Source of the DNA: Escherichia coli
Lineage (GTDB): Bacteria; Pseudomonadota; Gammaproteobacteria; Enterobacterales; Enterobacteriaceae
NCBI RefSeq assembly: GCF_003334785.1
Contig: NZ_QOWV01000005.1
DNA length: 64,000 bases
Reading direction: 5' to 3' (one strand)
In this document: piece by piece, positions 60,001 to 61,082 of the stretch
Layout of the letters: the number at the start of each line of letters is the position of its first letter
Position numbering within the stretch: position 1 is the first letter of the stretch
Position numbers: made by a program

Positions 60001-61082
60001 CTGAATTAAATGACGCGTTGCCAGCCAGGCACCGTAACGATCGTCCAGAGCAATACAACGGTTTTCAAAGCCAGGCAGGATACGGTTGATCAGCACCATA
60101 CCGGGCATTTGTTTCATTAATGAGGCTAAATCAGCATCCGGGATCATTTTGGCATGGACGACCAACGCAGCACAGCGATGGCGGATCAGTTGCTCAATGG
60201 CCTGACGCTCTTTTTGTTCGTTGTGGTAACCGTTGCCAATCAATAAAAAATTACCGGTGTGATAAGCCACCTGTTCGACCGCTTTCACCATTGCACCGAA
60301 AAACGGATCGGAAACATCACCAACGACCAGACCGACCGTTTCAGTGGTCTGCTGCGCCAGCGCACGGGCGTTGGCGTTCGGGTGATAGCTAAGAGACTCC
60401 ATTGCACTATGCACAGCCAGCCGGGAAGCTTCGCTGGCTTTGGGTGAATTATTAATGACGCGGGAAACGGTGGCGACTGAAACGCCTGCCAGTCGGGCTA
60501 CATCCTTTATGGTCGCCATGAAAATACCTTAGTGGGTAAACGCTTACATTCTTTCAGTGTTACGGAAAACGCCCGTTGGTTCAAGGGGTGGCGTGTTTTC
60601 ATCGTGGGAATGTGAGCCAAACGCAAATAAGTAAGACAAAAAAAGAGATTGCAAACCTTTGGTTACACTTTGCGAAACGCTGTTGCGATTGACCGCTGGT
60701 GGCGTTTGGCTTCAGGTTGCTAAAGTGGTGATCCCAGAGGTATTGATAGGTGAAGTCAACTTCGGGTTGAGCACATGAATTACACCAGCCTGCGCAGATG
60801 CGCAGGTTTTTTTTGCCGGTCATCAATCTGTAACAGTAACCGACAATTTACACACCTCGTTGCATTTCCCTTCATTCCTTTGCGTTTTCTCGCTGGCGAA
60901 GAGTCGTCGTGCAGACCACAATCAAGATCCCAGAGGTATTGATTGGTGAGATTATTCGGTACGCTCTTCGTACCCTGTCTCTTGCACCAACCTGCGCGGA
61001 TGCGCAGGTTTTTTTTCGCACCTAATTTACTGTCGCTCGCGTTCTTTATCTCGTGTAATCTCCCTCCATTCGCTTTTACTGA

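What the first reader, a model, noticed from the sequence alone, without database searches (positions are those of the whole stretch)
60733..61016. Tandem sRNAs OmrB and OmrA between galR and aas
Two adjacent 82-nt and 88-nt units share the same first 21 nt (CCCAGAGGTATTGAT...) and the same terminator hairpin plus T8, with divergent middles. This is the organisation of the OmpR-regulated Omr sRNA pair, whose shared 5' end pairs with outer-membrane protein, csgD and flhDC-type targets. It is not novel, but it is the only clear non-tRNA RNA locus here and no six-frame ORF explains it.
Basis: partly seen in the sequence, partly recalled or inferred. Interest (0 to 1): 0.4.

Follow-up and report, generated by a model that had tools for sequence, protein, structure and literature searches.

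The report
Known E. coli sRNA pair OmrB/OmrA
The two adjacent 82- and 88-base units are the well-studied E. coli small regulatory RNA genes omrB and omrA, letter-for-letter identical to the K-12 reference genes, so the finding is correct but ordinary.

Summary
The observation and the interpretation both hold. Window 60733-60814 (+) and 60929-61016 (+) are full-length matches to Rfam RF00079 (OmrA-B), at 86.1 and 96.6 bits against a gathering score of 40. They are base-for-base identical, with identical ends, to the curated K-12 genes omrB (b4445, 82 nt) and omrA (b4444, 88 nt). They lie between galR (59488-60519, -) and aas (61104-63263, +).

One small correction: the first 15 nt are identical and the first 21 differ at one position (nt 16, A vs U). 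The terminator loops also differ by one base.

The locus is present in 5424 of 5426 complete E. coli genomes. Rfam found 27 further Omr copies in 18 other Enterobacterales loci, mostly in the same galR-aas context, and the terminator stem shows compensatory changes.

Computed duplexes between nt 1-21 and the ompR, ompT and cirA translation-initiation regions fall on the published pairing sites, although the cirA duplex is no better than chance on energy.

Mechanism, from the literature: these are OmpR-activated, Hfq-dependent trans-acting sRNAs. Their shared 5' seed represses outer-membrane protein, csgD, flhDC, flgM and ompR mRNAs. omrA is also sigma-S dependent.

Already known; low interest.

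The parts
60733..60814 (+). omrB sRNA gene (82 nt)
   Evidence: RF00079 at 86.1 bits, full length. Identical in sequence and ends to b4445 of NC_000913.3.
60929..61016 (+). omrA sRNA gene (88 nt)
   Evidence: RF00079 at 96.6 bits, full length. Identical in sequence and ends to b4444 of NC_000913.3.
60733..60753 (+). OmrB conserved 5' end (nt 1-21; seed nt ~1-10), predicted single-stranded at its start
   Evidence: Nt 1-15 and 17-20 are invariant in 29 Omr sequences, but nt 1-15 could not vary because the loci were fetched with that 15-mer. Unpaired in the Rfam consensus and largely unpaired in the MFE fold. Computed duplexes with ompR (-18..-11) and ompT (+12..+19) fall at the published sites (PMC2588501).
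60929..60949 (+). OmrA conserved 5' end (nt 1-21; seed)
   Evidence: Same evidence as for OmrB. Nt 1-15 are fully unpaired in the MFE fold.
60787..60814 (+). omrB Rho-independent terminator (9-bp stem, AGAU loop, U8)
   Evidence: Terminator scan, fold. Across homologues, 100% of cells pair and 3 pairs show compensatory changes.
60989..61016 (+). omrA Rho-independent terminator (stem, GGAU loop, U8)
60619..60732 (+). omrB promoter region (-114..-1). The -10 hexamer TAAAGT lies at 60721-60726 (-12T).
   Evidence: The -10 hexamer is read directly from the sequence. The -114..+50 fragment is activated by OmpR-P in vitro (PMC5175337). -12T is reported for PomrB (PMC12692685). No consensus sigma-70 site was found by the simple scan, which fits dependence on an activator.
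60815..60928 (+). omrA promoter region (-114..-1, which is the whole spacer). The -10 hexamer CACAAT lies at 60917-60922 (-12C).
   Evidence: Read directly from the sequence. -12C is the reported determinant of sigma-S dependence of omrA (PMC12692685, PMC4447067). OmpR-P activates the -114..+50 fragment, and truncation to -60 loses OmpR control (PMC5175337).
59488..60519 (-). galR (flanking gene, divergent from omrB)
   Evidence: 343-aa ORF; annotated GalR in the identical K-12 sequence.
61104..63263 (+). aas (flanking gene, downstream on the same strand)
   Evidence: 719-aa ORF; annotated Aas in the identical K-12 sequence.

Best explanation
The interval holds the two paralogous small-RNA genes omrB (60733-60814) and omrA (60929-61016) of E. 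coli. Each has its own promoter and its own Rho-independent terminator, and each is transcribed on the + strand of the window, away from galR and towards aas.

Shown here:
- Identity of sequence and ends with the curated K-12 genes.
- The covariance-model match.
- The terminators.
- The galR-aas context and its conservation in other Enterobacterales.
- Complementarity of the 5' end to known target sites.

Taken from the published K-12 work, which used identical sequence:
- Transcription of both genes is activated directly by phosphorylated OmpR (EnvZ-OmpR).
- omrA additionally depends on sigma-S through its -12C promoter base.
- omrB can be activated by multicopy RstA.
- The RNAs bind Hfq.
- Their shared single-stranded 5' end (about nt 1-10, conserved to nt 21) base-pairs near the translation start of ompT, cirA, fecA, fepA, ompR, csgD, flhD, flgM and dgcM mRNAs. 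This blocks translation and promotes RNase E-dependent decay.
- Repression of ompR-envZ closes a negative feedback loop.
- The divergent centre gives OmrA a specific target, btuB.
For: - Rfam RF00079: 96.6 and 86.1 bits against GA 40.
- The 401 bases 60659-61059 match NC_000913.3 exactly, and b4445/b4444 map onto 60733-60814 and 60929-61016.
- Window 57600-64000 has 0 mismatches to a K-12 MG1655 record carrying lysA, galR, aas and lplT.
- 5424 of 5426 complete E. coli genomes hold the locus.
- Both terminators are detected on the + strand. Folds have z-scores of -2.9 and -2.7.
- 27 further RF00079 hits were found in 18 Enterobacterales loci. galR lies upstream and/or aas downstream in 16 of the 18.
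- In the 29-sequence alignment, nt 17-20 are invariant; nt 1-15 are too, but they were the search pattern and could not vary.
- The terminator stem pairs in 100% of cells. Three pairs change on both sides, and the slid controls give 0.
- Duplexes of nt 1-21 with ompR (-19.0/-16.9 kcal/mol; 0.4-3.4% of shuffled seeds do as well) and ompT (-17.8/-19.3 kcal/mol; 0.2-0.8%) land at ompR -18..-11 and ompT +12..+19. The latter is as published (PMC2588501).
- Promoter -10 hexamers with -12T (omrB) and -12C (omrA) match the published basis for sigma-S dependence.
- Regulation and mechanism: PMC2588501, PMC5175337, PMC13425233, PMC12692685.
Against: Nothing contradicts it. The limits are these.
- No expression data exist for this particular strain. 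The window is not K-12; it carries an 8.2-kb ETT2 segment that K-12 lacks.
- The cirA duplex (-13.6 kcal/mol) is no better than 12-18% of shuffled seeds, although it falls at the published site.
- The simple sigma-70 scan finds no promoter. This is expected for activator-dependent promoters, but it means the promoters are placed from the literature, not from the scan.
- The minus strands also fold well (z -2.9 and -4.6), so fold energy alone does not choose the strand. The strand is set by the U8 tails and the covariance model.
Confidence: 0.98

Rival explanations
1. The two units are not independent RNA genes but cis-acting leader or attenuator elements (tandem terminators) in a long 5' UTR that controls the downstream aas-lplT operon.
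For: Both units are on the same strand as aas. The second terminator ends only 87 nt before the aas start codon.
Against: - Each unit starts exactly 7 nt after its own -10-like hexamer, and each ends in a strong terminator.
- The curated record annotates them as separate ncRNA genes.
- In vitro transcription from each promoter fragment has been reported (PMC5175337).
- The units persist where aas is displaced or not found. In Enterobacter BIGb0383, aas is 2.8 kb away, and in Dickeya no aas is found within 2.5 kb downstream.
- The invariant part is the 5' end that pairs with trans targets, not an aas-related sequence.
Confidence: 0.01
2. The interval encodes one or more small proteins, and the repeat reflects duplicated coding sequence.
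For: Mechanical ORFs overlap it: 60775-60942 (+, 55 aa), 60599-60826 (-, 75 aa), 60872-61021 (-, 49 aa), 60943-61179 (+, 78 aa).
Against: - None of these ORFs is contained in a unit or shared by both units.
- The conserved blocks are the 5' 21 nt and the 3' 35 nt, while the centres differ in length by amounts that are not multiples of three (26 vs 32 nt, and 76-93 nt overall across species). That is an RNA pattern, not a coding pattern.
- No CDS is annotated here in the curated K-12 record.
Confidence: 0.005
3. The repeat is a chance or selfish intergenic repeat (REP/BIME-like palindromes) with no RNA product.
For: GC-rich palindromes in an intergenic region.
Against: - The 15-mer and the terminator motif occur only at these two places in the window.
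- The match is to a specific sRNA family, full length and at more than twice the gathering score.
- The position is syntenic across genera.
Confidence: 0.005

Closest known systems
E. coli K-12 omrB (rygB, b4445) and omrA (rygA, b4444); Rfam RF00079 OmrA-B
   Same: Identical sequence, length (82 and 88 nt), ends, order, 114-nt spacing, strand relationship and flanking genes.
   Different: Nothing within the locus. The host strain differs from K-12 elsewhere in the window, with an ETT2 segment at 32553-40756.
Omr loci of other Enterobacterales (Citrobacter, Enterobacter, Kosakonia, Pluralibacter, Serratia, Edwardsiella, Pantoea, Dickeya, Erwinia)
   Same: GGUG at nt 17-20, the GGUG/CACC helix, and the terminator plus U8 are shared, along with the CCCAGAGGUAUUGAU 5' end that was used to fetch these loci. 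The context is usually galR-omr-aas.
   Different: - The central regions diverge.
- Some species have a single copy. In Enterobacter BIGb0383, Lelliottia and Superficieibacter this copy has an OmrA-like centre behind a promoter slightly more like PomrB. This is the 'chimera' described in PMC13425233.
- In Pantoea the two copies are ~2 kb apart, with an FtsI-like PBP gene between them.
Other 5'-seed, Hfq-dependent OMP-repressing sRNAs (RybB, MicA, MicC, MicF) and other sibling sRNA pairs
   Same: From the literature, the logic matches: a conserved single-stranded 5' seed, a Rho-independent terminator that also serves Hfq binding, multiple OMP mRNA targets, and control by an envelope-stress regulator (PMC2588501, PMC4211561).
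   Different: The sequence family, the activator (OmpR rather than sigma-E for RybB/MicA) and the tandem duplicated arrangement all differ. No Rfam hit to those families occurs in this interval.

Membership tests
Rfam RF00079 OmrA-B | Sequence-plus-structure match to the family covariance model at or above the curated gathering score (40 bits) | tested here: met
   96.6 bits (60929-61016) and 86.1 bits (60733-60814), model positions 1-87/87, not truncated.
Rfam RF00079 OmrA-B | Conserved 5' end CCCAGAGGUAUUGAU(N)GGUG, unpaired | tested here: met
   Present in both units. Nt 17-20 are invariant in 29 sequences from 19 taxa. Invariance of nt 1-15 is built in, because the loci were fetched with that 15-mer. 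The region is unpaired in the Rfam consensus and in the OmrA MFE fold.
Rfam RF00079 OmrA-B | 3' Rho-independent terminator (CCUGCGC-loop-GCGCAGG) followed by U8, preceded by the CACC arm of the GGUG/CACC helix | tested here: met
   Terminator scan and folds. Terminator helix: 100% of cells paired, 3 of 8 pairs with compensatory changes. The GGUG/CACC pairs are invariant, so they say nothing either way.
E. coli omrA/omrB genes | [quoted passage not shown] | tested here: met
   galR at 59488-60519 (-) and aas at 61104-63263 (+). The same context holds in other genera.
E. coli omrA/omrB genes | Sequence identity with the curated genes b4444 and b4445 | tested here: met
   Exact match of window 60659-61059 to NC_000913.3; the annotated gene ends map to 60733/60814 and 60929/61016.
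E. coli omrA/omrB genes | 5' end complementary to validated target sites (ompT +12..+20, cirA -35..-10, ompR 5' UTR) | tested here: met
   RNAduplex puts the seed on ompT +12..+19, ompR -18..-11 and cirA -19..-10. The ompT and ompR duplexes are better than 96.6-99.8% of shuffled seeds. The cirA duplex is at the right site but is not significant on energy. Published sites: PMC2588501.
E. coli omrA/omrB genes | Transcription activated by EnvZ-OmpR (and sigma-S for omrA) | not testable with these tools
   Only promoter features can be read: -10 TAAAGT (-12T) for omrB, CACAAT (-12C) for omrA, and no consensus -35. The experimental basis is in PMC5175337, PMC4447067 and PMC12692685.
E. coli omrA/omrB genes | Hfq binding and Hfq/RNase E-dependent repression; discrete transcripts of 82 and 88 nt | not testable with these tools
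   Published for the identical K-12 sequence (PMC2588501). Not measured for this strain.

The most novel reading that the evidence does not exclude
The only non-trivial reading left open concerns the 3' 35 nt. The UU-N-CACC motif and the GGUG/CACC helix are invariant in all 29 Omr sequences aligned here. This part may have a function beyond termination and Hfq binding, for example a second targeting module for targets not yet identified. Guillier and Gottesman raised this possibility in 2008. It would be a property of the known family, not of this locus.
Probability: 0.1. Interest if true: 0.25.

Novelty: already known. Interest (0 to 1): 0.04.

Why it matters
As a discovery it does not matter. 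OmrA and OmrB have been characterised since the 2000s, and this copy is identical to the reference. It is useful only as an annotation point and as a positive control for the scan. The first-stage reader recognised a real sRNA pair from raw sequence, with exact coordinates. The PGAP-annotated RefSeq record checked here leaves these two genes unannotated.

Tried and rejected
- The simple sigma-70 promoter scan over 60500-61150 found nothing. I do not take this as evidence against transcription, because these are activator-dependent promoters with poor -35 elements. The -10 hexamers were read by eye at -12..-7.
- The exact 15-mer scan of genome contigs returned many hits in unrelated phyla (archaea, Bacteroidota, cyanobacteria). 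By my arithmetic, a 15-mer is expected by chance several hundred times in 298 Gb on both strands. Only Enterobacterales loci were kept, and they were confirmed with Rfam.
- Covariation in the central hairpin was not counted, because MAFFT does not align the divergent centres reliably. Only the outer helix and the terminator were tested.
- Fold z-scores do not discriminate between strands, so they were not used for that purpose.
- The cirA duplex energy is not better than shuffled seeds.
- The promoter-identity classification of single-copy loci is crude: global identity, with differences of 0.03-0.11. It is reported only as consistent with the published 'chimera'.
- Two literature searches failed for lack of capacity. 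One script failed on a file name.
- The rival readings (aas leader, small ORFs, REP-like repeat) were considered and rejected, as set out under rival explanations.

Full report
**Observation**

The + strand of window 60733-61016 contains two units, 60733-60814 (82 nt) and 60929-61016 (88 nt), separated by 114 nt.
- They share an exact 15-nt start, CCCAGAGGTATTGAT. This 15-mer occurs nowhere else on either strand of the 64-kb window.
- The first 21 nt are 20/21 identical; nt 16 is A in the first unit and T in the second.
- The last 35 nt are 32/35 identical. This stretch includes a CCTGCGC/GCGCAGG stem, a 4-nt loop (AGAT vs GGAT) and eight T.
- The centres (26 and 32 nt) are unrelated.
- The terminator scan reports both hairpin-plus-T runs on the + strand: 3 sites against 0.8 expected.

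**Identity**

A scan of the whole window against Rfam 15 at gathering thresholds gives three hits. RF00079 OmrA-B matches at 60929-61016 (96.6 bits, E 6e-18) and at 60733-60814 (86.1 bits, E 2e-15). Both are full length against a gathering score of 40. The third hit is a tRNA at 31187-31257.

A 521-base query across the locus is 100% identical to many E. coli chromosomes, including K-12 MG1655. It is present in 5424 of 5426 complete E. coli genomes, at 99% identity or more in 5344 of them.

In the curated record NC_000913.3 this region carries ncRNA omrA (b4444, 2976102-2976189, 88 nt) and omrB (b4445, 2976304-2976385, 82 nt) between aas and galR. Window 60659-61059 matches that record exactly. 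The annotated ends map to 60733/60814 (omrB) and 60929/61016 (omrA).

Window 57600-64000 has no mismatch to a K-12 record that carries lysA, galR, aas and lplT. galR is the 343-aa ORF at 59488-60519 (-), and aas is the 719-aa ORF at 61104-63263 (+).

**Related sequences**

An exact 15-mer scan of one genome per species returned many chance hits in unrelated phyla, plus about 30 Enterobacterales loci. Rfam confirmed 27 OmrA-B copies in 18 of 19 loci tested.
- Tandem pairs about 190-275 nt apart occur in E. albertii, Citrobacter, Enterobacter, Kosakonia, Pluralibacter, Serratia grimesii and Edwardsiella.
- Single copies occur in several other genera.
- Pantoea has two copies about 2 kb apart.
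- tblastn with the window's GalR and Aas shows the galR(-)/omr(+)/aas(+) arrangement in most of these loci.

In the 29-sequence alignment, nt 1-15, GGTG (nt 17-20), TT-N-CACC and most of the terminator are invariant. Invariance of nt 1-15 carries no weight, because the loci were fetched with that exact 15-mer.

In the terminator helix every cell pairs. Three of its eight pairs change on both sides (G-C to A-U in 8 sequences, U-A to C-G in 2, C-G to U-A in 2). Structures slid by 1-3 columns show no such changes. The GGUG/CACC helix never varies, so it is uninformative. The central hairpin was not tested because the centres do not align.

**Mechanism**

Read directly from the sequence:
- Each unit begins 7 nt after a -10-like hexamer: TAAAGT at 60721-60726 for omrB and CACAAT at 60917-60922 for omrA.
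- There is no recognisable -35 element.
- Each unit ends in a Rho-independent terminator.
- The 5' end is unpaired in the family consensus.

Computed here: nt 1-21 of either RNA form duplexes with the K-12 translation-initiation regions of three targets.

| Target | Seed site on mRNA | Energy, OmrB/OmrA (kcal/mol) | Shuffled seeds doing as well |
|---|---|---|---|
| ompR | -18..-11 | -19.0 / -16.9 | 0.4% / 3.4% |
| ompT | +12..+19 | -17.8 / -19.3 | 0.8% / 0.2% |
| cirA | -19..-10 | -13.6 / -13.6 | 12% / 18% |

The cirA duplex is not significant on energy. The ompT and cirA positions agree with the sites reported by Guillier and Gottesman, who showed pairing with ompT and ompR in vivo by compensatory mutations. 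That paper also shows dependence on Hfq and RNase E (PMC2588501).

From the literature:
- OmpR-P directly activates both promoters, using -114..+50 fragments. Truncating PomrA to -60 loses OmpR control.
- Repression of ompR-envZ closes a feedback loop (PMC5175337).
- omrA depends on sigma-S through its -12C base, whereas omrB has -12T. This matches the hexamers read here (PMC12692685).
- Multicopy RstA activates omrB specifically (PMC13425233).
- Further targets include csgD, flhD, flgM, dgcM and fepA, plus btuB for OmrA specifically.

**Rivals**

Three alternatives were considered.
- A cis-acting leader of aas. Each unit has its own promoter-like hexamer and terminator, and the units persist in species where aas is displaced.
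- Small-protein ORFs. The conservation pattern and the lengths of the centres are those of an RNA, not of a coding sequence.
- A REP-like repeat. There are only two copies in the window, and their position is syntenic across genera.

None of the three has support.

**Verdict**

This is a correct identification of a textbook locus. The sequence is identical to the reference genes, so there is nothing new in the locus itself. The only open point belongs to the family as a whole: why the 3' 35 nt are so strongly conserved.

**Seen in passing**
- The window is not K-12. It is collinear with MG1655 2973118-3030423 at 99.95-99.99% identity, but it carries 8.2 kb of ETT2 type III secretion genes at 32553-40756. 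K-12 has IS2H at that place.
- The PGAP-annotated RefSeq record checked does not list omrA or omrB.
- Pantoea has an FtsI-like PBP gene between its two Omr copies.
- The single-copy loci in three genera look like the published PomrB-OmrA chimera.

Noticed in passing
window 32553-40756: This 8.2-kb segment is absent from K-12 MG1655, which has IS2H (2996361-2997691) at that place. In other E. coli it is annotated as ETT2 type III secretion apparatus genes (PrgH/EprH, EscU, YscQ, SctT and EscJ families). At least 80% of the segment is present in 3002 of 5426 complete genomes. The window is therefore from a non-K-12 strain, otherwise 99.95-99.99% identical to K-12.
   Followed up: partly
window ~17818-17845 (K-12 3012426-3012579, yqeA-yqeB intergenic): A stretch of about 125 bp present in K-12 is missing from the window. 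The two BLAST pieces overlap by 28 bases, which suggests a difference in repeat copy number, possibly a REP-type element.
   Followed up: no
window 31187-31257 (+): tRNA-Gly (anticodon CCC), corresponding to glyU of K-12. It is the only other Rfam hit in the window.
   Followed up: partly
L001 (NZ_CP032667.1, K-12 MG1655, PGAP annotation) 3134-3417: This PGAP-annotated RefSeq record lists no feature for omrA or omrB, although the sequence is identical. The curated NC_000913.3 lists both. The hit table for other E. coli records likewise names only aas under the match.
   Followed up: partly
L030 (Pantoea stewartii) 2747-4879; also L059 (Pantoea MAG) 647-2694: The two Omr copies are ~2 kb apart instead of ~200 nt. 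A 579-aa FtsI-like class B penicillin-binding protein ORF (L030 2936-4675) lies between them, starting 113 nt after the first Omr terminator. It scores 687 bits to NF011685, below the curated cut-off of 737.
   Followed up: partly
L027 8766-8853, L037 6815-6900, L028 5418-5504: The single-copy Omr genes of Enterobacter sp. BIGb0383, Lelliottia and Superficieibacter have an OmrA-like central region (0.75-0.81 identity). Their 114-nt upstream region is slightly closer to PomrB than to PomrA. This is consistent with the PomrB-omrA 'chimera' reported in PMC13425233, and with deletion by recombination between the near-identical 5' ends.
   Followed up: partly
E. coli genome collection: Two of 5426 complete E. 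coli genomes have no match to the locus. 18 have a match covering less than 80% of it. One extra copy lies on a plasmid.
   Followed up: no
L027 (Enterobacter sp. BIGb0383) 5962-8766: About 2.8 kb separates the Omr gene from aas, against ~90 nt in E. coli. This implies an insertion between them.
   Followed up: no
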